Source: Amoebidium appalachense
Taxonomy: Eukaryota; Protista; Ichthyosporea
Reading direction: 5' to 3'
Length of the DNA: 64,000 nucleotides
NCBI GenBank assembly: GCA_963693365.1
Contig: CAVNZM010000002.1
Coordinates: 7,594,454-7,658,453 of the forward strand
A model generated the notes under the pieces. It searched no databases. It was not told the DNA's origin and worked only from the letters and a program-made list of their open reading frames with translations. Below, in pieces: positions 236-64,000 of the stretch. The position numbers and the translations under genes are program-made. Position 1 is the first letter of the stretch. Every line of letters begins with the position of its first letter.

Positions 236-1279
236 ATGCTGTTTGAAATGGTGCAAGCAAATTTCCTGAGCCTACGCTTGACAGCTGGGGTGGTTATCAA
301 ACAATACGAAATTCTTTCTTCCAAGCCCCTAGGTAATGGTGCATATGCAGCTGTATACCACGCAAAACACAGGAAAAGTGGTGTGAACGTAGCGTTGAAA
401 TGCATCCCGCATTCGAACCCCGACCCTCTCTCGTCGGTAGAGACAGAGGTTGAAGCGCTTACGCGCACCAGAGGCCACCCAAACGTCGTCAGTCTATATG
501 ATGTCTTTCAAGATGACAGCTTTACCTATCTAGTTCTCGAGCACTGTTCTAACGGGACACTACACGATTTCCTTCAAAAGAACGGACCAGTACCGGAGGA
601 CATGGCGAAAAAATGGTTTGCTCAGCTCGTGCGTGCTGTTTCATTCTGTCAGGATCGTGGTGTCATCAACCAGGATTTGAAAAACGAAAACGTTCTTTTT
701 GACTCGAACATGAACGTCAAGATAGTCGACTTTGGCCTTTGTGTGTTGACAGACGGGGACGCATCTCGAGCGGTTACGACACGGGCGGGGGGATCGCCTG
801 TCTTTGCTGCTCCAGAGGTTTATGGCGCTAGTTTGAATGGAATTTCCTTCCGTCCTGCCTTGGCCGAGTCATGGGCTCTTGGTGTTATTTTGCATTCCAT
901 TCTTACAGGAGCACTCCCATTTCCTGTCAGGCATTACCAGCGCATGTGGATGCGATATCAACCGCCCACCTCCTTGTCGACCTCCTGCCAGGATTTGCTA
1001 CAGTACATGTTGAAACACACGCCGTCAGTACGTCTCCCCGTGAAAAGAATACAAGAGCATGTTTGGTTACGTGAGCAAACGGACGATGGTTGTGCTTCAT
1101 GTTCAGATGATGAAGTTGCAAACTTGGATGTTGATGTGTGTTATAATTATGAGCCAAGAGCGTCGCTGGTAAGGTTAGCAGGTTTGAATGATGGAGTGGA
1201 CATGGGGCATCGATGTACTTGTGATGACAGTGTGGGTAAAGGTGGAAAGGTGATGGTTGAGGTCGGGCATAACTGTTAG
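236..1279 (+). CDS. Intronless Ser/Thr protein kinase, CAMK group (AMPK/MARK/TSSK-like), atypical catalytic loop, 347 aa
   Basis: GNGAYAAV Gly loop, VALK, helix-C Glu, HPNVVSLYDVF, INQDLKNENVL (HRD replaced by NQD), DFG, GSPVFAAPE, ESWALGVIL; in-frame TGA at 206-208 supports ATG 236. Confidence 0.92.
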   Translation: MLFEMVQANFLSLRLTAGVVIKQYEILSSKPLGNGAYAAVYHAKHRKSGVNVALKCIPHSNPDPLSSVETEVEALTRTRGHPNVVSLYDVFQDDSFTYLVLEHCSNGTLHDFLQKNGPVPEDMAKKWFAQLVRAVSFCQDRGVINQDLKNENVLFDSNMNVKIVDFGLCVLTDGDASRAVTTRAGGSPVFAAPEVYGASLNGISFRPALAESWALGVILHSILTGALPFPVRHYQRMWMRYQPPTSLSTSCQDLLQYMLKHTPSVRLPVKRIQEHVWLREQTDDGCASCSDDEVANLDVDVCYNYEPRASLVRLAGLNDGVDMGHRCTCDDSVGKGGKVMVEVGHNC

Positions 1280-3076: not shown

Positions 3077-8558
<5,482 letters not shown>

Positions 8559-15118: not shown

Positions 15119-28643
<13,525 letters not shown>

Positions 28644-37837: not shown

Positions 37838-38002
37838 GGGGGGGGGGGTGGGGGGGGGGGGGGGGGGGGGGGGGAGGGGGGATGCATACTTGAAGACCCT
37901 GAAGAGCTGGTCGATCTCGGAGTCACCGGGGAAGAGGGGGCGGCGGTTAGCAAGCTCGGCAAAGATGCAGCCCACACTCCAGATGTCAACGGGCGTGGAG
38001 TA

Positions 38003-38052
<50 letters not shown>

Positions 38053-38619
38053 AGGAATAGAGGATATAAGGTTGGCAGACGGAAAGAGCGAGGGAGAGAG
38101 AGAGAGGGAAGGGGGAAAGAGGGTGTGTGTGTGTGTTTTTTTTTTTTGGGGGGGGGGGAGATTAGGTTGTGTTCTGTAGTACGAGGTACACATTTCCGAT
38201 GGGCAAAACACCAACAACTTTTTTCTTTGGTGTTAAGTATGTTCTTTTCCCTTTTTCGTTTTCATCTAAGGGGACGAGGGGGGGGGGGGGGGGGGGGGGG
38301 GGGGACTTGACTGCATGGGTTTCGTAGCCTACACAGCTATACTGCCTAACCTATTTCCTACCACATACCCCCACCCTTATGTTTTATTTCCCAAGCAGAA
38401 CAGGCAAACAGTTAAACGGACGGAACTGTGGTTTGGTGGTTACAAGAGGCACAGAGGACGTCTGGCGGATTCTGGTAAAATAATGAAGGATGCGGAAAGG
38501 AAAGCCACAAATTGTTTGTGTTTGTAGGTGTAGGTGTGTAGGTGTGTAAGTGTGTGTGTGTGTTCTCTTCCTTTCTTTCCTTTTCCTTTTCCTTTTCCTT
38601 TTCCTTTTCTTCTTCTTCT

Positions 38620-38652
<33 letters not shown>

Positions 38653-38783
38653 GTGGTGGTGGGGGGGGGGGGGGGGGGGGAGGGAGGGGGGCAGGTTGTA
38701 TTGTGATTACAAAGGATGCAAAAGGTGTAAGATGCGCCGTGCGTGAGCTCTGACAGAAAGAGAGGGTGGGTGTGGGATCCCCG

Positions 38784-38818
<35 letters not shown>

Positions 38819-38882
38819 TTCAAATCCAGCACTCACTTCTTGCCACCCAGAAGAATCTCCGGCGCGCGATACCACAAGGTCA

Positions 38883-38922
<40 letters not shown>

Positions 38923-39137
38923 GCGTTACCAAACTCGTAAGCAAATAAAAAACACGAGAGGAAAGCGAACCGAGAAGGGAGCAAAAGCCGAAAGACTGAT
39001 ATTGGGACAGTAAAGTAAAATGCTACAGAAATCAGCTGTAGGATAGAAATAAGAGCACAGTGCCAAGCAACAAACGGGGAGGAAAGGGGGGAAAGGGAGG
39101 GAGGGAGGGAGAAAGGGAGGGAGGTGGTGGTGGTGGT

Positions 39138-39168
<31 letters not shown>

Positions 39169-39309
39169 GGAAGGGGTTGTTGTTGAGGAGACGCTTTCCA
39201 CATGTGGTGGAGGTGGCGTGGTGGGGGTGTGATACCATCACTGGTAGGGCGAGGTGGCCGGTGTGCGAGAGCGTGTGTGTGCATGTGTGATTTGAATGTG
39301 TGTGTGTGT

Positions 39310-39345
<36 letters not shown>

Positions 39346-39455
39346 GCACCTCGTGGGTGTACTGTGGCAGGGGAATGCCAAAGGCTCTTGCCAGGCCGAA
39401 ATCGGCAAGCTTCAGGTTGCCCTCTCTGCGCAAATAGGTGTCAGTACATGCTCCC

Positions 39456-39504
<49 letters not shown>

Positions 39505-39929
39505 GGTGGGTGGGTGGGTGGGGGGGGGGGGGGGGGAATGATAGGGATAGATGAAGAAATGTCCCGGGGAGTGATCGCATGCCGGAAGAGGTATACGTGT
39601 GTGTGTGTGTGTGTGTGTGCATGGCGGGAGGGGGGCGGGGGGTCTGCTGCTGCTGACAGCATGGTGGATTGGGCGAGACTTTTGAAAGTCACATAAGACA
39701 GCACACAAATCAAAAACACCGTGGGTGGATAAGGCGCGACAGGAGAGCGGGGAAGGGGGCTCTCCATAGGGGGATGTGTTTATGGGTTTGCAATGTAATA
39801 GGGTGCATTTAATACATCCACGACGGGCAGGACAGGAAAAGTTGCTGCACAAAGAGCATTGCACAAGGATTATGCATCATCGTCATTATTGATGGTGGTG
39901 GTGGTGGTGGTGGTGGTGGTGGTGGTGGT

Positions 39930-39966
<37 letters not shown>

Positions 39967-40104
39967 GTAACCGGCATTAAATTTCACGAATGCCCAAACT
40001 CGAGAAACATAGATGTGCCGCATAGACACATACAACACACAGAAACATGACACAAAAGTGTACCGCACAGACCACATAGGTGCCCAATAGCATGAATAAT
40101 CCGG

Positions 40105-40146
<42 letters not shown>

Positions 40147-42354
40147 TATATATTGTACTTATCGAGGAGCAGGTTCTGAGGCTTAAGGTCACGGTGCAGC
40201 ATACGGCGGGAATGGCAGAAGTGCAGCCCCTGAAGCAGCTGCCACATGAAGCTCTAGAACGCACACACTTGTGTAAGTGTGTATGGTCTCTGACGTAATG
40301 GCCCTCCCCACCAAGCCAAGACATATACAAAGTCGAAATAAAACAAAAGAAGAAAGACAGAAAGGAGGAATCGAAAAAGACTGCCCCGCCTTCCCCCCCT
40401 TTTCCTACCCCTGTATTTCACACACACAACCCTCATCGACAGCACACACCCTGGACACCTACACACGTCCTATGTATCGGCATTTGTTTCGCAGACACCG
40501 GCACCTTTCTGCCTTACGCATTTTTCATCTCCGTATCTCCACGTCCAGCTTTGTATGCTCCCTTGCCCGAGTCCTAGATATCTGATTCCATTCCCTACAC
40601 ACATTTGCCTACCCTGCCTCTCATATACGCTACCATGCCGATCTATCCGTCCAAACTGATTGGTTTTCTTGTCGACGGAAGACGTGTGTGTGTTGGGGGG
40701 GGGGAGGGGGGTAGGTAGGTAGGCATGTGCATGTGTGGTGTGGCTGTCTAGTTGTGTGTCATTTTCACCTCGGGCCCCTTTGTGTCCGCCACCCTACACG
40801 GCCCACTATCCCACTGTCAGACACCAGCACACCTATGCCCACACCCACCCACCTACCCACACACATACGCACACCGACCCAAATACCCACATCCCCACTC
40901 GCACCAACCCACCCACACCCATCCACACACACACCTACCCCCCCCCCCCCACCCCCCACCCACACCAACCCACAAACCTTGACATGTGCGGGGGTGAAGC
41001 CGCTGGGGGGTGCGGTGTCGATGTACTTCTTGAGGTCCTGGTCCAGGTACTCAAACACGAGCAGCAGCCGTGCATTCTCGCACACAACGTCCAGAAGCCT
41101 GCACACATGCGCACGTACCACTTGTGAGTGTCTACTCACTGCAGGGAATTCTTTCGACTTTCGATACAGCAAAGGGTGCCTTGAAATTCAAAAAGATGGG
41201 GGTAGAGGAGGGAGGGGGGAGTAAGCGAAGATGGGGCGGGGCGTGGGGGAGGGGGAAGGGGGGAGGGAGGAAGAGGTGGCAGGGGTAGGTCTTGCTGGCC
41301 AAAGTTAATGACAGGCCATGCTCACCCAGCCCCGTTTTCACCTTCAAAAGACAAAAGAACATTAATGCTTAGAGGTGACTGTGTAAACACGGACAGGTTT
41401 CAACCAGCTACAGAAACAGCAAGCAGGGCAGAGTAGGGCACGTGTGGGGTGGCAGTGGCACCGATGTGCAAGGGCACCTGCTCGTGCACACGACAGGAAG
41501 GAGTGGAAAACAAGCGGGCCTGGGACTATTTTGGTGGCTCGCTTTTGAGGAGGGGCAAAGCCGCTTGCATGAGAGGATGGCAGGGTAATTCAGGGGAAAG
41601 GTACCTTTTCCTCGCAACTAATGTTCTAGGCTACTACTCCTTTGCAAGATGCATGGAGTCCGCAAACCCCCTCCCCCCCCTTTCCCCCCACACACATACC
41701 CAACCCAGAACCCCCAACTCCCACCCCACCCACCATTGCCGAAAAACGAGAATTCACGTACTTCACAATGTTTTGATGCTGAAGCTCCATCAGAGCAGAC
41801 ACCTCACGGATGGCAGTGGAGGGAACACCCTCATCGTCTCCTTCGAGTTTAATCTTCTTAAGAGCAACCGTCTCACCTGTAACCAGCACATAGGTGTTGA
41901 GAAGATAATCGGAAAAACGCGTACACGTTGTGAGAGACAGTTATCGAAAAGTGTAACGAAGATTCGCTCCCTCACAAAGCTGTTCGTTTGCAAAAGTAAA
42001 ACCGATAAGACTGGGCTTCATGGCCGAAGATTTAACCCTATCAATCTTTTGGTATGTGTAAAAACGTATCATGTTCTACAAATACTATTGTTGTCTCTGC
42101 TGGCCACAACCTACAAGTGCTTGACCACCCCCCAAAAAACTAAGTCTGTTGCTGTTCGGAGGATCACTATAAGTTCCCTTATCTCCTACCCCCTCCTCCC
42201 CCCGCCTCCACTACCCAAAAAACTAGAAGTGTATATCGTGCAAGATTTCTCTAGAAGGGATAACATGAATCTTACCTGTCTCTTTGTTCTTGGCCTTGTA
42301 GACGACACCATAAGTGCCCGACCCCACCTTCTCGAGCTTCCGGTACTTGTCCAT
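36515..42354 (-). CDS. CDK1: PSTAIRE cyclin-dependent kinase (CDK1/CDK2/cdc2 clade), 295 aa, 9 coding exons
   Basis: Exons 42354-42276, 41876-41762, 41098-40978, 40253-40159, 39425-39350, 38886-38837, 38003-37890, 37209-37068, 36610-36515; total 888 nt. [59 protein letters not shown]. One acceptor reads CG (38005-38004). CDK1 versus CDK2 not separable by eye. Confidence 0.93.
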
Positions 42355-42949
42355 TTTGAAACCTGTGTTTAGTGCAGAAATTGCATCAGAAAAACAGAAA
42401 TTAAAAACTGCTGTACTATGGCCGTGTGCTTTCGCCCCTTTAAAGCTTGAAATCAGACCTATGCTAGGTTGTGGGCGTCCCCGGAAAGCTAGCATAACTT
42501 TCTCTGCGTGCCTCCTCTCGTTGCACTGAAATAAACACCAGAGCCTCAAGTAGGCTATTAGTGTTGCCTTCTTCCACAAACTGCATTTACGTAGGCCTAC
42601 AATTAATCCAAACAAGGGTCTTTACAAAATGAATGTTGTGCTCAAGTTTTCCCTCTTATATCCCGCGTTTCCTGGGGCAGCTAACTCAACCCAAGTATGA
42701 AAGGCGCAGTTCTAGACATCTCACTTCGAGTTTTCAAAGATCTACAAGCAATAGCAGGAAAAAAAGGATCGGGGTATCACACCTGCGGTAGAAAGAAAGA
42801 AAATGTGTTAGTAAATAAAAAACTTGAAGTCACGACTATTCCATGTAACATTGGTAAAAAATTGATCACTCGGAAAACGTTATCGCTTCAACAGCACGAC
42901 TTCTGTGTCTTTTGTCCGAGTCGGGGCCCGGGTCCGGGGGACGGCTCCG

Positions 42950-43409: not shown

Positions 43410-44584
43410 GGAGAAGAAGAGAGTGGAAAGATATGATCGCTTCCAGTGTATTTTGTGGAAACTTTCGCAGTGAACGACCGACTTAACGTCTTTAGGTTGA
43501 TCAGCTGCAAACAGGAACAAGTTAAAAAGTGTAAGACATAATATTCTGGAAAGAGGTGGTTCAAGAAAAAGCTGTTACTATGCACTGTTCCATTCGTCAA
43601 CTTTTTCAGGACGCATCTTTCTGAGTCACCTCCTGATAATTTTATGACTACCTCTGCTCCCCACCCCCACCGTCCCTCCTGCTTGAATGCTTGATTACCT
43701 CCATGCAGCACCCTCCCCCTACCATCCCATTCCCCCATCCATCGTTTTCGAAGTCGCAGCCCGGTTAATGAGTAGCTCATAATTTACGCCCCTCCCGCCT
43801 TTCTCCCCCCCTCCCCCTCCCCCTCCCCCCTTTTTCCACACCCACACCCACACCCACACACCCACCCCTTAGTGCATAAATACACACAACCCCTCTTCCA
43901 TTTAGTTATTCAATAACCTGGAAGGGGGATGGCCTGGGAAAAAATTTGGGATCTGGCTTTGTCCGATTGGGTTTAGGTACCAGTGTATAATTTACTAAAC
44001 GAGACCTCCGTGTCCAGCACAAGTGGAGAGTACAAAAATCTATCAGCACATCTCAAGCACAATACAACAGGCACCACTTGCGTTCAATACAACTATGGAA
44101 AGCGCAATTCACGATCTAAAGGCACGTCTCGTGCATCTTCAGATACTTGCTGGGAAGGTGGTTTAGCCAAAGTATTTATCTACCAAATATCTGTTATATC
44201 CCCTGTAGGACAGCACTTCAAGAAAGCGTCTACACGGTGTTGGCATGGTTCAGATTACTCTGTTAGTTTCTCCCCTCTCCAACCCGGCCCACACACACCC
44301 TACTCTTTCCGGGGAAGGAAAAAAGGAAAAAAGAAAACAACAAAAAAAAAAGCTCGAGCCCTTTCATCAAAATGTTATCTAAGGTAAATCTATATACTAT
44401 ATACACCTCAATCAGAAAAGGTTTCTCTGAGCCTCTTTATCAAGTATCAGTAACTTTGAAAAACATGCACCATGCAGATGTGCATGGCAACCCCAAACTC
44501 AGATAATTATCTACAAACCTTGAAGAATCCTGACCAGGGGCTCCGTTCGATTCCTTCTCGAATTATCAACCACACGAGTCAAAC

Positions 44585-46068
44585 TCAGTTCAGCGCCTCG
44601 CACATTGCCGTGATTTCAACGTTAAACTCCGTAAACCACTTAGCCTTGCACCCGTTGCAATAGTCATCCACACATCTCTTTTGGCCCGGCACCTTGCACT
44701 TTGAGATGGAGCAGGGTGCAATGTTGCCGCACTTTGCCGGGTTGGCCACGCAGATTTGCGCCGCAGACGGGAGGTCGCAGTTGTAGTTACCCTCAACACA
44801 CTGGCACTGTTTTTGTTTTTTGTTTTTTTGTTTGTTTTTGGTGAGGGGGAAAGGAGGGGGGGGGGGGGGGAGGGAGGGAGGGGAGAGGGGGGGGGGGGAT
44901 GGTTAGAATGCAGAGCACTGTATGGAAGCACAATTACGCATTGAGAACACGGTGCAGGACACCGTTGCAAACCCTTCGAAATGCTCCCCCCCCCCCCCCT
45001 CCCTTTCCCCCTCAACCCCTTCAATGTCCCCCTCCCCTCCCCTCCCCCCCCCCCCCCCCCCCCCCGGAGCCCTCCGCCCACACACACAGACACAGACACA
45101 CACACACACATCCCGGCAACCCCTCACCCCTTTTTTCTACTGATTCGGTCGGTTCTATTAACTTTTTCGTACTTTTGCTTGCCACCACCACCGCGACGTC
45201 CCCAACCCTCCTAAACCACCACCCCTTTGCACCCCCTGGAAGCCCTGCTTTTCCTCCCCAATGCCCCCCTCCCCCTCCCCCCTTCCCCCCGTCCCCCGTC
45301 CGCTCTCCGCACCTCCCTTTTCCCTCCCAACTCAGCCCTAACCAAATTCTTCGCCACCCACACCCATGCCCACTTACCACTTTCTGGTAACCAGCGTCAA
45401 ACCCCGTCCAGCCACTTGCCACCCACAGTCCACTAGTGGTGTAGCACCCGCAGAAGCTCAGTGAATTTTCTCCGTTCATGGCCTTAAGCAGTTTTTTCTC
45501 TGGACGGGGAACAGCGCGGCCCATGTAGAAGAACCCACACGAGTTAAGGTGGAAGACACCCTTCGGGTCATCTCCCTTTTTTCCTAATGCGGTAGTAATC
45601 AGGTCTCCCTGCTTGAGCAATGGGAGACCGCACTTGTCGGCATCCATCGGCACAACAACCTTCGCATCGCTTCCCTGTTTTTTTTTTCAGGAATAATATT
45701 AGTTTTTTGTTTTGCCAACGGTTGTTTGTGTTAAAGAGAGAAAGAGTAGGCCATCAGGGCGGGGAGGGGGGGGGGGGGAGGGAGGGGGAGGAGGGGGGAG
45801 GGGGCGGGTAAAGAGAGAGAGAGGGAGGAAGGGGAGAAAGAGTTCGCGCGTTTTCGTGTGTGCGTGTAATTGTGTGTGTGTGTGTGTGCCTGTGCGTGTG
45901 TGTGCCTGTGCGTGTGTGTATGTGCGCCTGTGTGTGTGTGTGTGTGTGTGTGTGTGCCTGTGTTTGTGTATGTGTGTGCCTCAGGCTGTGTGTGTGTCTG
46001 CCTGTGCCTGTGCGTACGTGAGTGTGTTTGTGTTAGTGTGTGTGTGTGTCTCGCTCTCTCTGTATGTA

Positions 46069-46116
<48 letters not shown>

Positions 46117-47860
46117 AGTGTGCGTGTGTGCTTGTGTGCGTGGATGCAGCCTGCATCTGTGGTGTACGCGTACGGATGCGTGGTTGTGAGTGTCAAGAGT
46201 TAGGGGAAGGGGAAAGGAGAGCCCGGATGTACGGGTGTGTTTATGGGAAAACCATGACTGGTGACGGGGAAGCAAAGGAATCAGATAACGAAGTGGAACA
46301 AGCAGGGGGATAGTCAGCGTATGTGTCAAAGAGGCAGGCGGGGGAGGGGCGGGGGGCGGGGGGTGGGGGTGGGAGGGGGGGGGGGGGGGGGGAGGGGGCA
46401 GGGTTGAAAAGGGGGATGGGGGGAGGGGGGGGGCAGGGTTGAAAGGGGGAGATGGGGGGGGAGGGGGGTAGTGTACTGGGACTTGCGGCTCGGGAAGATA
46501 CATTAGGAGGGCTGCGTCATCGTGCCTTCTATTAAACTTCTGAGTATTAACGGTTTCGTTTTTTCTCCTTTTTTCTTCCTCTTGTTTTTTTTCCCTCTTG
46601 TTCCATTATCACATTTACCGAGTCACGTTGATTTTTGTGCTACCCAAATCCCGTAGGCAGGGAACAAGGCTCTAAAGCTTCACTGAAGCACATAAGTCGA
46701 TAGAGACCTGGCATTGAGACCCTCGATGATAGAATATCAGTTCCCTTTGCCCTACAAGGCCACGCCAATCATGGTGATCCACCCTTGCAAAAAATCACTC
46801 AAGGCTTGTTGAGACCGTAGTTTGAATCACTAGCAGTCACCGGAGGGGGGGAGGGGAGGGGGGGGGGGGGGAGGGGGGGGGGGGCTGGGTAACCACCTCT
46901 GCCAGGCCCTTAAAGGAACGTTTGACCCGGATCTTGTATTGCAGTTCCCGCCTAAGTGAGACGATTTCGTGTTAGAAATGCATCTTGCGGTGCACAGTGA
47001 CAGGAGGCGGCAAAAGCACGTCTTGGGTGTGTACTAGCTATAGTTGTGAAGTTAGGGTTTGCACACCCATGCCCACCATATTTCTCCTGAGCTCTTGCCC
47101 CACTTCAGCAAACACACAATTTCAACACACACACAAGCTGTAGCAATCCTAGCAGGCATGCAAGTGCACACAGTACAAGCACATGATATCGCCTCAACAC
47201 CTGCACAAGACCCCCCCCCCCCCCCCCTCTCTCCCCCCCTCCCCTCCCCCCGCCTCTCCCCTCTCGGCCCCACTAGCCCCCCGGCCCCAATAGAAAGAAT
47301 GAATCGGATAACAAGTAAGGAACAGGTGCCTGAAGCAAGAATTTGGGCGGGGAGGCAGGGCGGGGAGGGTATGGGTGTGTGTTGTGTGGGAGAGGGAGGG
47401 TGGGAGGGCCGGGGGGGGGGGGGGGGGGGGGGGGGGAGGGGGGGGAGGGAGGACGAAGGTGCGGTAGTAGATTGCATGCTTTTCTGTTCCGAATCATGGT
47501 TTCCTTTCCCTCTTTGCATCCCATATTCTCCAGTGCACTTAGTGAATGCAAGTGTGTGTTCCTCTACATACATAAGACTTCGTTCTCCAGTGCATGGAAG
47601 ATAAGAGAGTGTGTGTAGATCATGGGGAGGTTTACGATTCCCGCTCAAGTTTTCGCATGTATGCATGCCACCTAATGAATGTGCGTGTGTGTATGTAATG
47701 TAGAATGGTGTATTTGAATGCAAACGACACACTCGCAGCAGGCAGGCGCGGAACGGTGGTTTTGAATGTGTGTGTGTGTGTGTGTGTTTGTGCGTGCGTG
47801 CGAGCGTGCATGTGCGTGCGTGTGTGCGTGCGTGTGCGTGTGGGTGTGTGCACGGTGTGT

Positions 47861-47906
<46 letters not shown>

Positions 47907-48064
47907 GTGTGTGTATGTGTGTGTGTTTGTGCGTTTGCACGCGTGTGTGTGTGTGTGTTTCACACGGTGTGTGTGGGCCATGTATGTACGTACGTATACG
48001 CGCGTGTGTGTGCATGTGTGTACGTATGTGTGTGACGCTGTGTGTGTGTATGTGTTTATGCCTT

Positions 48065-48096
<32 letters not shown>

Positions 48097-48120
48097 TTGT
48101 GCGTGTGCGTGTCACGGTGT

Positions 48121-48156
<36 letters not shown>

Positions 48157-48273
48157 ATCGTGTGTCTATGTCATGTTGCCTGTCTGTGTACACATGTATG
48201 TGTTTGTGTTGCACGTGTACGTTGTGTGTGTGTGAATGTGTGTGTGCTGGTGTGTTTGTGTATGAGTGTGTGA

Positions 48274-48366
<93 letters not shown>

Positions 48367-48972
48367 GTGCGTGTGTGTGTGTATCTGAAAGCGACCGTGT
48401 ATGTGCATTTGTGCCCATGTGCAGACTGGCACCTGGACACTGGCACATGTGCACTGATGACCATACATAGCGTGCACGCGTAGTGCATGGTGTGTTGGTG
48501 CTTGAATACATATTAACCGGATTCAGAGGCGTGCGACAGTTACAACATCCATGGCCCCTACCATGGTATATGTATGGTTTGTCCATGCTTGTGTGTGTGT
48601 GAGTATGTGTTTTGTTCCTGCAAACGTCCAGACCTTGAAATGCCCCGTTTGCCTCCACGGTACACCCCACCCCAGCTAGCAGCCCCGTCATTCACATGTC
48701 ATGTGTGCGAGTCAGTAACCATTGTCATCATACTCACAAACACACAAGCAAAAGCATACACATTAGGCAGAACACACACATGAACCAACACCCATACACA
48801 TATTCCACGCAGCCACCTACTTTGCCCAGTCGTGTGCCACGGAAACCACCCGTGCCTCGACCACGTCCGCGGCGTTCTTCAGCTGGCCGCATGTTGTTTG
48901 TTTTTGGCACGTGCAGGCAGCCAGAGCGCCTGCCACGGCACACAGAACAACAACAAGCTCTTTAAGAAACAT
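44585..48972 (-). CDS. Secreted TIMP/NTR-domain protein with two C-terminal cysteine-rich modules, 241 aa, 4 exons
   Basis: Exons 48972-48821, 46951-46897, 45674-45378, 44806-44585; GT-AG, phases 2/0/0, total 726 nt. Signal peptide [19 protein letters not shown], then CTCQKQTTC...ADVVEARVV...[11 protein letters not shown]...DKCGL...FHLNSCGF...FCGC...[10 protein letters not shown]...PCSISKC...[14 protein letters not shown]. Confidence 0.85.
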
Positions 48973-50863: not shown

Positions 50864-51465
50864 TTACTGTACGCCAAATATGGGCTCATGAATCCCCCTC
50901 GAATTTCCGGGAAGTTTCACCACAAAGACCCCCCCAGAAGTAGGCATTTTCAGTAATTGGTCGGCAATCATGCGCTTTCTCGTGGTGGTTATAAATAGCA
51001 AGTCCATGTTCTCTCCACCAATCGCAACGCAAGTAGGATTGGGCACTGGTAGCTTCACCGTCCAATCAGCCTCTCCCGTTTGTGGGTCATGCCGTTGCAC
51101 CTTCCAACCCCCGAACACGGTCGTCCAAATGCCTCCTTGCGAGTCTACCGTTGAGCCGTCGGGAAACCCCAGGTTGTCCGCACCGAAATCTCGCAACAGT
51201 TTTGGGTTTTTAGGTACTCCCGTTGCTGTTTCATACTCGTACGCTAATAATTTCCGATCTGGTGAATCGCAGAAATACATTGTGCATCCGTCAGGGCTAA
51301 AGCATATGCTATTAGTTACCCGCACTCGGAGATCGCCGAATAGTGGTTGGCCGGTGAAATCTTTGTCCAGTCGAAAAACACGTGCAAGTTTACCGGACTC
51401 AGTATCGTCTGCATTGCGTGGATGGTAGCCACCGAATATGAACCTGCACGTGTACATGTACATGT

Positions 51466-51558
<93 letters not shown>

Positions 51559-51882
51559 CATGCACGCACGCATCTGTGTCTTGTGCTTCGGTGGGCGCAA
51601 TAGGTGCGGAGTTTGAAGGAGGTACCCAGAGAAGAGAGTGGGGGAGGGGGGGGGGAGGGGGGGGGACACATTGGTTGGTTGGTGAGTATGCTGGTTAGAC
51701 ATGTCATCACATGCACTACAGAATATATAGGGGGAGGGGGTGGGGATGGGGAGAGAGGGGGGAAGAGAGAGAGACAGGGAGAGATCAGGTGTAGGTGCAG
51801 GGAGGGAGGAGAGATTATGAGAAAAAACACGTCCCCCCATTGTGTGCCCCCTAGGCCCCCGCATTACCCTCCCTTTTCTTCT

Positions 51883-51915
<33 letters not shown>

Positions 51916-51940
51916 TTACCACTCCTCCCCCCTCCCCCTT

Positions 51941-51995
<55 letters not shown>

Positions 51996-52199
51996 AAACC
52001 AAGACCTGGCTAATGTGCCATCATAAACAAATTGATTACAGATCAATTTACACAACACGGGTCAACACCAATTGGCATATATTGTTCCTGCCATTGCCCC
52101 CCTCCCCCCCCACCCTTCCCCTCTCCTTCAGTCCACCCACCACCACCTTACACACCACCCACCCATTTTCCCCAGCCACACGTGCTCACATGAACCCCC

Positions 52200-52254
<55 letters not shown>

Positions 52255-52573
52255 ACCTGCCCCCTGCCACCACCAGAGAACAAAACCACACCAGGAAAAA
52301 ACAAAACAAAACCAGAGGTGAAGCAGGGAAAAATTCCAAGACAACCAAAACGGGTAAGCCTGGGAAACCCGAACCAGCAAATACAAAAACCACGCACCTT
52401 CCCTGCCTGTCACACCTCCCGTCGTTTAGCCTCACCCCCTCTGGCCTATCGGGATAATCCCACACCCTCCGCATGGGCCCAACCCCCCACTCGAAAATGT
52501 CCACCCCTGACTCTACGGCCACGAGGAAATGCTTGGGGTCCTGCGTGTGTGTGTGTGACAGTGTGTGTTTTTC

Positions 52574-52605
<32 letters not shown>

Positions 52606-52620
52606 GGGGGGAGGGGGGGG

Positions 52621-52704
<84 letters not shown>

Positions 52705-52939
52705 CGCGCGCACGCGTGTGTGAGGTGTGCCCGTGGGGATGTGTGTGTGAGTGATGGGATGAGCCAAAGTTCCGTTCACAGCACCAGTTAGGAATGCGTT
52801 CAACCACAACACAGTGGCAGTTTTTTCTTTTTCTATTTCTTCCCCCCCCCCCCCCCTCCCCCTTCCCTCTTCCCTCCCCCCCCCCCTCCCCCCGACCCAG
52901 TTTTTCATTGGTCTCTCTCTCTCTCTCTCTCAATCTGTC

Positions 52940-53010
<71 letters not shown>

Positions 53011-53258
53011 GCACCTTGAGGCCATGGAAGTGCCAGTACGGATACGATTTTTTTTTTTTTTTTTTCTTTTGCTGGGGGGGGGGGGGGGGGGGGTTTGAAT
53101 GCGGAACACGGTACGAAGTACGCATACACGAAGGACACATGCAAAGGCAAACATTCAAAGGCAAACAATCAAGTATGCAACATAGCCATGCGCACAGGGG
53201 GGGGGGGGAAGGGGGGCAACATGTGTATCATGTGTGTGTATCATGTGTGTGTGTTTGT

Positions 53259-53289
<31 letters not shown>

Positions 53290-53703
53290 GGGGAGGAGGT
53301 GGTGGAGGGTTCGCCAACATGAGTGTGTGTGCACATATGCGCGCACATGTGTGATGTGTGTGGGTGCATGTGTACGCATGGCTATGTGTTGTGTGTGCGT
53401 GTGCGTGTGTTAATTATGCGTGTACGCGTGTGTTTGTGTGTGTGTGACAAGTGGGTTGGGGAGGGGGAAGGGGGGGGGGGGGGGGGGGGGGGGGAAGGAA
53501 GGGGGGGGCAGGAAGTGAGAGCGGCAGAAGGGAAACGAGGCGCATCCATGTCCACACATGGCCATCATGGAAAAAAGAAAGAGGATCCAACCGAGTTGAG
53601 CAGGTTATAAATATGGCAGTGGCCCGTGTAGGTGGTAGAATGACGAAGATTTTGTGTTAGTAGCTCTACAGAATGCAAAGACCAAGATATTAACAGATTC
53701 TAA

Positions 53704-53789
<86 letters not shown>

Positions 53790-54325
53790 GTTGGGGCGGG
53801 GGTGGGGTGGGTGTGTGTGGGGGGGGGGGGGGGGAGGGGGGGGGGGGGGGGGAGGCGAGAGATGGTAAAAAAAGCTGCGGCATCGTGACGTTCGCAATAT
53901 TCTTTCCTCAGATTGCTGTTCTTGCTTCTACTGTTTCTACTTCTGCTATCACAACAGTTCTCATCTTTATTCTTTCCTAAGTTTGCTGGGAAATTACCTA
54001 TTAATCTTATGACGCAATTATAATTCTGCCAGGTTATGAATAATTAGATGTTAGGTGCTATTAAAGATCTTCCTTCGTAGAGGGAGCAATGGAGTTATTC
54101 CTCTCTTCTCTCCTATACTCTTAATCGACGTTATCGTCAGGATATAAGATGAAAATTAAAATCATTGGGGACCTCCTAGAGAAGGCAGGGGTGTGTGAGG
54201 CATTGAGGCAGAACCTGCGTTCAGCCCCCATCTGTTGGTAGGATGGGACGTAAAAGGCGCAGAGAAGTGGAGGGGGAGGGGAGGGTGTGTGTGTGAAGAG
54301 TGAGGGGGCGAGGGGGTCGCGACAG

Positions 54326-54369
<44 letters not shown>

Positions 54370-55036
54370 AGGGAGAGAGAGAGGTGGGGGTAGGGAGAGG
54401 GAGATAGTGTGTGTGTGTGTGCGCGCGCGTGTGTACGTGCGTGTGTGTGTGTGTGTGTGGGAGAGAGGTAGAAAGACGGGGGGGAAAGGGGGGGAGGGAG
54501 GGAGGAAGAGAGACATGGGAGCCGCATGGGAGGGTGGGGGCAGGGGGGGAGGATGGTAATAAGTAGGCAGGGTGTGTGCGCTGATGTGGTGTATGTTTGT
54601 GTGTGTCAGTATGTGTATATGTGTGTCATGATGTGTTTGTTATGTGATTGCGCGGGTGTACGTGTGATCGGGTCTGTGCGGCGTGCGTGTGTGCGAGCGC
54701 GAGCCCGCGGATCTGTTTAGGTGCTTGTGGGTACGTTTGTGTGTGCGCTGTGTTTGTGTGTGTGTGGGATGGGGGGAGTGGGGGGAGGGGGGTGGGGGGG
54801 CTGTTTAAGGACAGGGGGAGAGAATCTACCTCCATAAGTGCCAATGAACATGGTTTTTCCTCCAGGACCATTGACTCCACATCTTCACCTGTTTCCCTAC
54901 ATCTGTGGATCTTGTAACCATCTATGTCCACCCAATAGAGGAAGCCTGTTCTGCTATCCCACAGATTGCTTTCTCCTAGTACGTCCATGCTGTCCACTAG
55001 CAAAGATGCTTCAATCTCTTTGTTTATTTTCGCCAT
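50864..55036 (-). CDS. SMP-30/gluconolactonase/LRE (regucalcin-family) sugar lactonase, 309 aa, 3 exons
   Basis: Exons 55036-54830, 52540-52398, 51443-50864; total 930 nt. LGESNLWD, LYWVDI, RLNDGRCDRQGRF, TNSICFSPDG, FPDGSTVDSQGGIW, LPVPNPTCVAIGG, LFITT; metal-ligand E/N/N/D positions retained. Confidence 0.93.
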
Positions 55037-56200
55037 GGTGCGAGGTTGTAGCCTATGATGTTGTCCAACGTCGTCCAAATAAGTGTGAACATGGGACCAT
55101 TGGGATGATGGCAAGAAAGATAAAAAAAAACACGACTCGATCCGTGGACTCTCGAGCTCCTTCAACTGAAAATTTCTGTGGTGTACAGTAAAATTTGTAA
55201 CTGAGTAAATCCGTCAGTGTTATCTGATTGGGTTAGAGAGCATCACCGAAGAAAGTGAATGACGTCACGAAGTCAACAGCGGTGTGTTTGTCCGAGACGG
55301 ATAGTTGACGATATGTGTATGTATACCATATATTACATAACATTGTTCAAGTGTTATTTTTCTTTTAGTTTTTTATCTTGGAAAAAAAAAACTAAAATGT
55401 CATATGTATGTACAAGAGAAAAAGCTTTTGGTGAGCCTACATATATGCTGGCAGATCCGGACTGCATAGCACAACTGTGACGTCATGATCGCGGTTTTTT
55501 TTTTCGCCGCGGAAGGCCTGTCTCGGCTACGCGCACGTACGGTTTTAATACGGTGCCGTGAAAACACACATGCGCATAGTGCAATTGTGTCACTGCAACG
55601 GCTTAAATACATGAATATTTACTGTGTTTACTCCTTAGAATTCTTATACACGAAGAGTATGTGCAAGTACAGCATGCATTTCTGTTGCCTCAAAAGGCCT
55701 ACCTGCCTACATCAACTCTTTGCATGAGCCTCCGGGACGGTTACCACGGCGATCTATGTTTTGCATACTATGTTCGGGTTAGCCAATAGCATTACGCATG
55801 TTTTCCGGATTTTACCCATGTCAGCCAATCATAACCGCAGATCTTAGGTGACCTTTCATTTGATTCGCGCGCTCTGCCCGCCCCTCGACTCTATCTGTGT
55901 ATCACGTTGTTCACGCACACAAGTTTTGTTGTTTTGGAAAACACTTGAAAACGTTTGATTCTTTTACCTACTTAGGACATGTTATTTTACACATCGTTGG
56001 GTTGACAGGAGCGACACACCTTCTACCACCTTTTTTTTTTCGCCCGCCCCTTTTCACCTTCGCAGCAGCATTGGCCGGGTGGTTCGTGTGGTGGTTGGCT
56101 CGAACAAGGTTCAATTTTTCGTTTTCTTGAATCAGGGGCAGTTAGCTTCATTTTTTTCCTCAATAGCAACACAGAGTTGGGGCGGTAACTGGATGATACG
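55037..56200. promoter_or_regulatory. Microsatellite-free head-to-head intergenic region (putative bidirectional promoter)
   Basis: Lies between divergent ATGs at 55036 and 56201; TGACGTCA at 55260 and 55478; CCAAT boxes at ~55227 (reverse), ~55782, ~55825. Confidence 0.55.

Positions 56201-64000
<7,800 letters not shown>

What the first reader, a model, noticed from the sequence alone, without database searches (positions are those of the whole stretch)
44585..48972. Secreted TIMP-like metalloproteinase inhibitor with a novel C-terminal architecture
Seen: a clean 4-exon gene; signal peptide then CTC; mature cysteines at 1, 3, 9, 65, 96, 125, 127, with [19 protein letters not shown] and FHLNSC. 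Known: TIMP-1 starts CTC, has N-domain cysteines at 1, 3, 13, 70, 99, 124, and chelates the metzincin zinc through the free Cys1 amine; an extra N-terminal Ala abolishes inhibition. The TIMP C-domain is replaced by a VWC/pacifastin-like segment ([10 protein letters not shown]) and a [13 protein letters not shown] module resembling repeats in invertebrate extracellular proteins. Inference: a pre-metazoan protease/inhibitor system or a host-directed inhibitor. Cleavage at ALAA|C versus ALA|AC decides activity.
Basis: partly seen in the sequence, partly recalled or inferred. Interest (0 to 1): 0.8.

Follow-up and report, generated by a model that had tools for sequence, protein, structure and literature searches.

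The report
Ichthyosporean TIMP with pacifastin-like tail
A single-celled relative of animals transcribes a four-exon gene for a likely secreted protein whose front half is a distant relative of animal TIMP metalloprotease inhibitors and whose tail is a degenerate pacifastin-like module plus an unassigned cysteine-rich module; it likely blocks zinc proteases, but this is untested, and TIMPs outside animals were already known.

Summary
The gene is real. Four minus-strand exons give 241 aa, and intron-free contigs from public runs support all three junctions. The host is an ichthyosporean: the neighbouring UXS1 groups with Creolimax, Ichthyophonus, Abeoforma and Pirum (SH-aLRT 98). Mature residues 1-96 match a prokaryotic TIMP-like profile (27.3 bits; 0 of 1000 shuffles reach it). 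That family hits human TIMP-2 (E 6e-11), and one member models onto the TIMP fold. Cys1, 3, 65 and 96 take the conserved positions. Residues 127-159 match pacifastin-like repeats but lack Cys2, Asn and Cys6, one whole disulfide pair, so they are probably not a working serine-protease inhibitor. The last 8-Cys module stays unassigned. Best reading (0.55): a secreted metzincin inhibitor using the Cys1 zinc wedge. No activity or target was shown, the spliced protein itself was not folded, and the signal cleavage site is ambiguous. A TIMP in the ichthyosporean Sphaeroforma arctica and in bacteria was reported in 2012, as a single-domain protein. This scan has also found bacterial TIMP-like genes before on other DNA. 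What is new is the multidomain architecture. Vertical descent versus gene transfer is unresolved.

The parts
48821..48972 (-). Exon 1: start codon, hydrophobic leader (residues 1-18 or 1-19) and mature residues 1-31 with Cys1-Thr2-Cys3 and Cys9
   Evidence: the loose end of spliced contigs matches its 3' end; hhalign to the prokaryotic family, probability 58%, E 1e-4
48916..48972 (-). Predicted signal peptide; cleavage after Ala19 frees Cys1 (Leu at -3), cleavage after Ala18 (A-L-A) leaves one extra Ala
   Evidence: Kyte-Doolittle 15-residue maximum 2.79 here, 1.05 elsewhere; no SignalP available
46897..46951 (-). Exon 2 (55 nt): strand carrying the QYKI...FKG motif
45378..45674 (-). Exon 3: rest of the TIMP-like N-domain (Cys65, Cys96, Cys125) and first half of the pacifastin-like module (from Cys127, codon 45446-45444)
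44585..44806 (-). Exon 4: second half of the pacifastin-like module (Cys150, 152, 159), the 8-Cys module and the stop codon
44600..44752 (-). Unassigned 8-cysteine module (mature Cys168 to Cys218)
   Evidence: No Pfam, PDB or database match; single-sequence model pLDDT 40; Atlas lead 0.76
   Evidence: X1 and X2 contigs; length estimate
57560..63998 (+). Neighbouring multi-exon UXS1 gene, used only as a marker of host lineage

Best explanation
The gene is spliced into a transcript for a 241-aa protein that is likely secreted and likely inhibits extracellular zinc metalloproteases (metzincins) the way TIMPs do. Shown: the gene structure, the splicing, and sequence homology of mature residues 1-96 to the TIMP/NTR N-domain with all four core cysteines in register. 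Inferred from the family: an OB-fold barrel with disulfides Cys1-Cys65 and Cys3-Cys96, plus Cys9-Cys125 as the counterpart of TIMP's third bond, one helical turn earlier. Also inferred: after removal of the leader, the free amine and carbonyl of Cys1 would chelate the catalytic zinc and Thr2 would fill S1'. If the leader is cut one residue early, the extra Ala would shift selectivity away from MMP-type and towards ADAM-type enzymes. The TIMP C-domain is replaced by a pacifastin-derived module that keeps the C1-C4 and C3-C5 pairs but has lost C2-C6, so it likely serves as a spacer or binding arm, followed by an 8-Cys module that likely tethers the protein or adds a second binding site. The target could be the organism's own astacin-like proteases or those of a host or neighbouring microbes; the data cannot choose.
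For: A profile of 80 motif-selected prokaryotic TIMP-like sequences scores the spliced N-domain at 27.3 bits over positions 1-96. 0 of 1000 shuffles reach that score in each of three designs (full shuffle, first 24 residues held, cysteines held). Residues 25-127, outside the selecting motif, score 17.5 bits on their own, again 0 of 1000. The same family (46 sequences) hits TIMP-2 at E 5.7e-11, TIMP-3 at 2.6e-6 and TIMP-1 at 5e-3, and 15 of 46 members hit Pfam TIMP at E<=0.01. One member models at pLDDT 93; its 16 best Foldseek hits are TIMPs, TM 0.72-0.81. Independently of my motif, exon 3 alone returns NTR (0.79) and TIMP (0.78) clusters first in the Atlas, at lead level only. Cys1-Thr2-Cys3 is the TIMP zinc-binding motif (PMC9409782 passages; PMC3003256 introduction). 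Cysteine counts are even in each module (6, 4, 8). Candidate astacins are reported from one ichthyosporean (PMC9848320 passages).
Against: No activity data, and no target gene in the 64 kb window; no genome to search. The A-X-A rule favours the cut that leaves an extra Ala: before Cys1 the window protein has Leu at -3, seen in only 3 of 70 prokaryotic family N-termini against Ala in 49 (a bacterial set, so only a hint). The family Asp after helix A is replaced. The fold was modelled only for a bacterial proxy. Single exons give no Pfam TIMP or NTR hit and no true homologue in the large protein collections. The domain is a very long branch, at most 27% identical to the set. NtA, PCOLCE-NTR and complement C345C share the fold, and from recalled knowledge are not metzincin inhibitors.
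Confidence: 0.55

Rival explanations
1. A non-inhibitory NTR/NtA-like binding scaffold of the cell wall or adhesive matrix: the basic TIMP-fold domain binds protein or polysaccharide, and the cysteine-rich modules cross-link or space it.
For: NtA, PCOLCE-NTR and complement NTR domains are next after TIMPs in the proxy fold search; NTR is the top Atlas cluster; the N-domain has pI 9.3; ancestral-type pacifastins often sit in multidomain matrix proteins (PMC13388995, section 10); the leader may leave an extra Ala.
Against: Cys-Thr-Cys sits directly behind the leader and all four TIMP core cysteines are kept; TIMPs outrank other NTR domains for the family in both sequence and fold searches.
Confidence: 0.27
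2. A bifunctional inhibitor, or mainly a serine-protease inhibitor, in which the C-terminal modules supply canonical loops.
For: Residues 127-159 align with pacifastin-like repeats (score 85; 0 of 5000 shuffles, also with the search-pattern residues held), and those repeats hit Pfam Pacifastin_I at E 1.3e-5, below the gathering score.
Against: Cys2, the invariant Asn and Cys6 are missing, which removes the C2-C6 bond that anchors the reactive loop (PMC2689174 passages; PMC13388995 section 6). The equivalent P1-P1' would be Leu-Pro. The 8-Cys module is unassigned.
Confidence: 0.12
3. A chance assembly of exon-like pieces, or a contaminant sequence.
For: No homologue found for single exons.
Against: Intron-free contigs from two studies match with 0 mismatches; GC3 0.645 equals that of UXS1 exons, 0.64; profile matches far exceed shuffles.
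Confidence: 0.01

Closest known systems
Animal TIMP-1 to -4, N-terminal inhibitory domain (Pfam PF00965)
   Same: Leader followed by Cys-X-Cys; core cysteines in register; homologous barrel strands (by eye through the shared profile, the QY.I...FKG and H...C stretches recur in TIMP-2)
   Different: Third N-terminal cysteine at 9 rather than 13; family Asp replaced; no TIMP C-domain; no direct Pfam hit on single exons; activity unknown
Prokaryotic single-domain TIMP-like proteins (unnamed family; noted in PMC3516229 citing Brew and Nagase 2010)
   Same: Profile match over 96 residues; 11 of 47 non-redundant members also carry a cysteine at 9-11
   Different: At most 27% identity, long branch, not grouped with the Cys9-11 members; three spliceosomal introns; different C-terminal modules
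TIMP-domain proteins of Sphaeroforma arctica and Ectocarpus siliculosus (PMC3516229)
   Same: TIMP domain in a non-animal eukaryote, one of them an ichthyosporean
   Different: Described as single-domain; their sequences were not retrieved here, so orthology was not tested
Ancestral-type pacifastin-like domains (PF05375; PMC13388995)
   Same: Long glycine- and aromatic-rich stretch after Cys1, C3-x-C4, Gly in the C4-C5 loop, embedded in a multidomain protein
   Different: Cys2, Asn and Cys6 absent; no TIMP or netrin partner domain is mentioned in that paper's text or its 2 readable supplements

Membership tests
TIMP/NTR N-domain | Cys-X-Cys at the start of the mature chain | tested here: inconclusive
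   CTC follows a hydrophobic leader, but two cleavage sites are possible and one leaves an extra Ala
TIMP/NTR N-domain | Two further conserved cysteines that pair with Cys1 and Cys3 | tested here: met
   Cys65 and Cys96 align to the family's conserved cysteines; the bonds themselves are inferred
TIMP/NTR N-domain | Sequence homology to the domain | tested here: met
   Transitive: window to prokaryotic profile 27.3 bits, 0 of 1000 shuffles; family to TIMP-2 E 5.7e-11. Pfam on single exons was negative; the spliced protein could not be scanned against Pfam
TIMP/NTR N-domain | OB-fold barrel | tested here: inconclusive
   Shown for a bacterial family member only; the spliced protein was not folded
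Animal two-domain TIMP | Cys13 paired with Cys124 | tested here: not met
   Cysteines at 9 and 125 instead; an equivalent bond is inferred
Animal two-domain TIMP | TIMP C-terminal domain with three disulfides | tested here: not met
   Replaced by a pacifastin-like and an 8-Cys module
TIMP (functional) | Inhibits metzincins by zinc chelation through Cys1 | not testable with these tools
   Needs an enzyme assay
Pacifastin (PF05375) | Six cysteines with C2-N-x-C3 and bonds 1-4, 2-6, 3-5 | tested here: not met
   Four of six cysteines; C2, Asn and C6 absent. A homologue, not a member
Pacifastin (PF05375) | Canonical reactive loop between Cys5 and Cys6 | tested here: not met
   Cys6 absent; Pro at the P1' position
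VWC | Ten-cysteine VWC pattern or Pfam match | tested here: not met
   No Pfam match on exon 3 or exon 4 taken singly; the ten-cysteine pattern is recalled

The most novel reading that the evidence does not exclude
An active, secreted TIMP-mechanism metalloprotease inhibitor in a unicellular holozoan, inherited from the common ancestor with animals and given its own C-terminal modules independently. Extracellular protease-inhibitor control of the TIMP type would then predate animals, or be turned against an animal host's metzincins, with signal-peptide cleavage setting MMP versus ADAM/astacin selectivity.
Probability: 0.3. Interest if true: 0.72.

Novelty: new variant of a known kind. Interest (0 to 1): 0.47.

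Why it matters
Both TIMP-evolution papers read here treat the family as metazoan; searching their text found no mention of unicellular or choanoflagellate members. The only non-animal eukaryotic TIMPs I found in print are two single-domain proteins named in passing. This gene is an expressed, RNA-verified ichthyosporean TIMP homologue with an intact Cys-Thr-Cys tip and a different C-terminal half. It is a ready test case for whether the TIMP mechanism works outside animals and for how TIMP C-domains were acquired. It also extends pacifastin-like modules to Ichthyosporea and shows loss of exactly one disulfide pair. It is not a new kind of system.

Tried and rejected
No whole genome is held, so no search for metzincins or paralogues. 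Pfam on single exons: no TIMP, NTR, VWC or pacifastin hit. Homologue searches with exon 3 (proteins of 175-2000 aa; 58 candidates, none at E<=0.1) and exon 4 (129-2000 aa; no candidate) were empty; near and shorter lengths were not searched. The exhaustive search with exon 3 gave 3 hits, all tandem-repeat artefacts. PDB sequence searches with single exons gave chance hits only. Related-locus scans with single exons gave nothing or short chance matches. Pfam TIMP over prokaryotic genome samples: 0 of 3, 0 of 401, and 21 of 401 weak matches of which the 11 read were chance. Searches for the 8-Cys module in viral contigs, plasmids, phages and Pseudomonadota gave only chance matches. The viral pacifastin-like repeats found no further relatives. 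The single-sequence model of exon 4 had pLDDT 40 and was not used. The tree of the N-domain with 46 prokaryotic rows is uninformative: long branch, no animal rows. hhalign of the family with exon 3 alone was not significant (probability 1%). No animal or Sphaeroforma TIMP sequence could be obtained, so vertical descent versus transfer was not tested. No complex prediction was run. Contig depth (X1 2462, X2 135, X3 9) cannot rank expression. Brew and Nagase 2010 is not held and the supplement of PMC3516229, which lists the non-animal TIMPs, could not be read; both may bear on novelty. Literature searches for TIMP with Ichthyosporea, Holozoa or Sphaeroforma showed no paper on this architecture; most hits were seen as listings only.

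Full report
Observation. The region holds a minus-strand gene of four exons (48972-48821, 46951-46897, 45674-45378, 44806-44585) separated by GT-AG introns full of GT and poly-G/C tracts. Five public runs were listed and four laid on 44200-47500. A 1012-nt contig of X1 and a 1399-nt contig of X2 (one sample) cover exons 4, 3 and 2 in succession with 0 mismatches and continue for 195 and 207 nt, beginning with the last 30 nt of exon 1. The 8 letters left unlaid at junction 3/4 equal in number the 8 exon bases the tool skipped next to a repeat. A contig of X3, another study, bridges junction 3/4. X4 shows only repeat matches. The gene and its splicing are therefore shown.

Host. The window also carries a kinase, a ubiquitin-conjugating enzyme, a zf-UBP protease, a CDK, a regucalcin-like gene and UXS1. 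The best named hits of a UXS1 exon are EukProt entries labelled CFRG, Ihof and Awhi, which I read from recalled codes as Creolimax, Ichthyophonus and Abeoforma. In a quick ML tree of 36 rows that I picked from the 120 hits listed, the window's UXS1 groups with these and Pirum (Pgem) at SH-aLRT 98, apart from animals, choanoflagellates and Capsaspora (one gene, no bootstrap, one unreliable fragment row). The host is an ichthyosporean. GC3 of the finding (0.645) matches UXS1 exons (0.64), so the gene looks native.

N-terminal domain. Single exons found no TIMP in Pfam, PDB or the large collections, as expected when a divergent domain is cut in three. Their profile aligns to mature residues 1-96 at 27.3 bits, with Cys1, 3, 65 and 96 on the conserved cysteines. 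None of 1000 shuffles reached this in three designs, and residues 25-127, which lie outside the selecting motif, still score 17.5 bits against a decoy maximum of 6.9. A 46-sequence alignment of the family (47 non-redundant rows less one truncated) hits TIMP-2, -3 and -1 as its only PDB matches under E 0.01, and 15 of 46 members hit Pfam TIMP. One member folds at pLDDT 93 onto TIMPs, followed by PCOLCE-NTR, complement C345C and agrin NtA. Independently, the Atlas ranks NTR and TIMP clusters first for exon 3, at lead-level scores. Homology is well supported but transitive, and the fold was modelled only for a proxy. Deviations: the family Asp is replaced by Ala, and the third cysteine is at 9, as in 11 of 47 prokaryotic members, not at 13. 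The tree does not place the domain.

Leader. The leader is the only strongly hydrophobic stretch. A cut after Ala19 frees Cys1 but has Leu at -3; a cut after Ala18 fits A-X-A and leaves one Ala. In 70 distinct prokaryotic family N-termini, -3 is Ala in 49, Val in 11 and Leu in 3. The ambiguity is real. In TIMP-3 an extra Ala weakens MMP inhibition but keeps inhibition of ADAM17 and ADAMTS-4/5 (PMC3003256, abstract and introduction), so it need not abolish activity.

C-terminal half. A pattern scan of viral contigs gave 6 stretches; two hold the same cysteine-rich protein with two repeats that hit Pfam Pacifastin_I at E 1.3e-5, under the gathering score. Mature residues 127-159 of the window protein align with these repeats (scores 85 and 63); 0 of 5000 shuffles reached either, including shuffles that hold the pattern residues fixed. 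Pacifastin bonds are 1-4, 2-6 and 3-5 (PMC2689174 passages). The window module has C1, C3, C4 and C5 and lacks C2, the invariant Asn and C6 (PMC13388995 section 6). One whole disulfide pair is gone, and with it the clamp of the reactive loop. The long Gly/aromatic segment resembles the 'ancestral' class of PMC13388995 (abstract, first part of Results, sections 6 and 10 read), whose text and two readable supplements mention neither TIMP nor Ichthyosporea. The last module (Cys168-Cys218, 8 cysteines) stays unassigned. My recollection of similar repeats in invertebrate proteins comes from no call.

Mechanism. Most likely (0.55) the protein is secreted and uses the Cys1 amine and carbonyl on a TIMP-type wedge to block a metzincin, with the tail as a spacer or tether. 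Secretion, disulfides, fold of this sequence, activity and target are all inferred. Candidate astacins have been reported in one ichthyosporean but were not found in Sphaeroforma arctica (PMC9848320 passages), so an endogenous target class may exist. None lies in this window. Rivals are a non-inhibitory matrix or wall scaffold (0.27) and a serine-protease or bifunctional inhibitor (0.12).

Comparison and novelty. Leclere and Rentzsch 2012 (PMC3516229 passages) report the domain outside animals only as single-domain TIMPs in Sphaeroforma arctica, Ectocarpus siliculosus and various bacteria, and absent from choanoflagellates. Cnidarians already show single- and two-domain TIMPs (PMC4860685 passages). 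Earlier notes of this scan describe the bacterial family repeatedly (18 findings) and none in a protist. The protein works like a TIMP by inference and belongs to the TIMP/NTR N-domain family by homology, but it fails the two-domain TIMP and pacifastin membership tests. The combination of TIMP N-domain, degenerate pacifastin module and 8-Cys module was not found in the papers searched. Verdict: a new variant of a known kind, interest 0.47.

Noticed in passing
window 242-1249 (+): Intronless protein kinase ORF in an intron-rich genome, with lower GC3 (0.47) and NQD in place of the usual HRD catalytic-loop motif (motif recalled); possible retrogene or atypical kinase.
   Followed up: partly
window 45675-45700 and 44807-44830 (-): The acceptors of introns 2 and 3 are preceded by A-rich runs instead of polypyrimidine tracts, yet are used in the spliced contigs.
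   Followed up: partly
window 44680, run X1: A low-depth contig matches part of exon 4 and then leaves into 255 unrelated letters that are not in the window: a chimeric cDNA, a paralogue or a rare isoform.
   Followed up: partly
L170 (same protein in L153, L156, L169): Contigs of 183 and 372 kb in the viral collection encode a 998-aa leader-bearing cysteine-rich protein with two pacifastin-like repeats; the 2026 pacifastin survey does not mention viruses.
   Followed up: partly
L030, L039, L042, L043, L062, L063, L069, L086, L127, L139, L140: A subset of prokaryotic TIMP-like proteins carries an extra cysteine at position 9-11; most of them cluster loosely in the tree.
   Followed up: partly
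window 50867-55081 (-): SMP-30/gluconolactonase gene with a large last exon and GC3 0.50; origin not examined.
   Followed up: no
window 4874-5017 (-), 17728-22699 (+), 37868-42621 (-): Housekeeping neighbours: ubiquitin-conjugating enzyme, zf-UBP ubiquitin protease and a PSTAIRE-type CDK; no functional link to the finding.
   Followed up: partly
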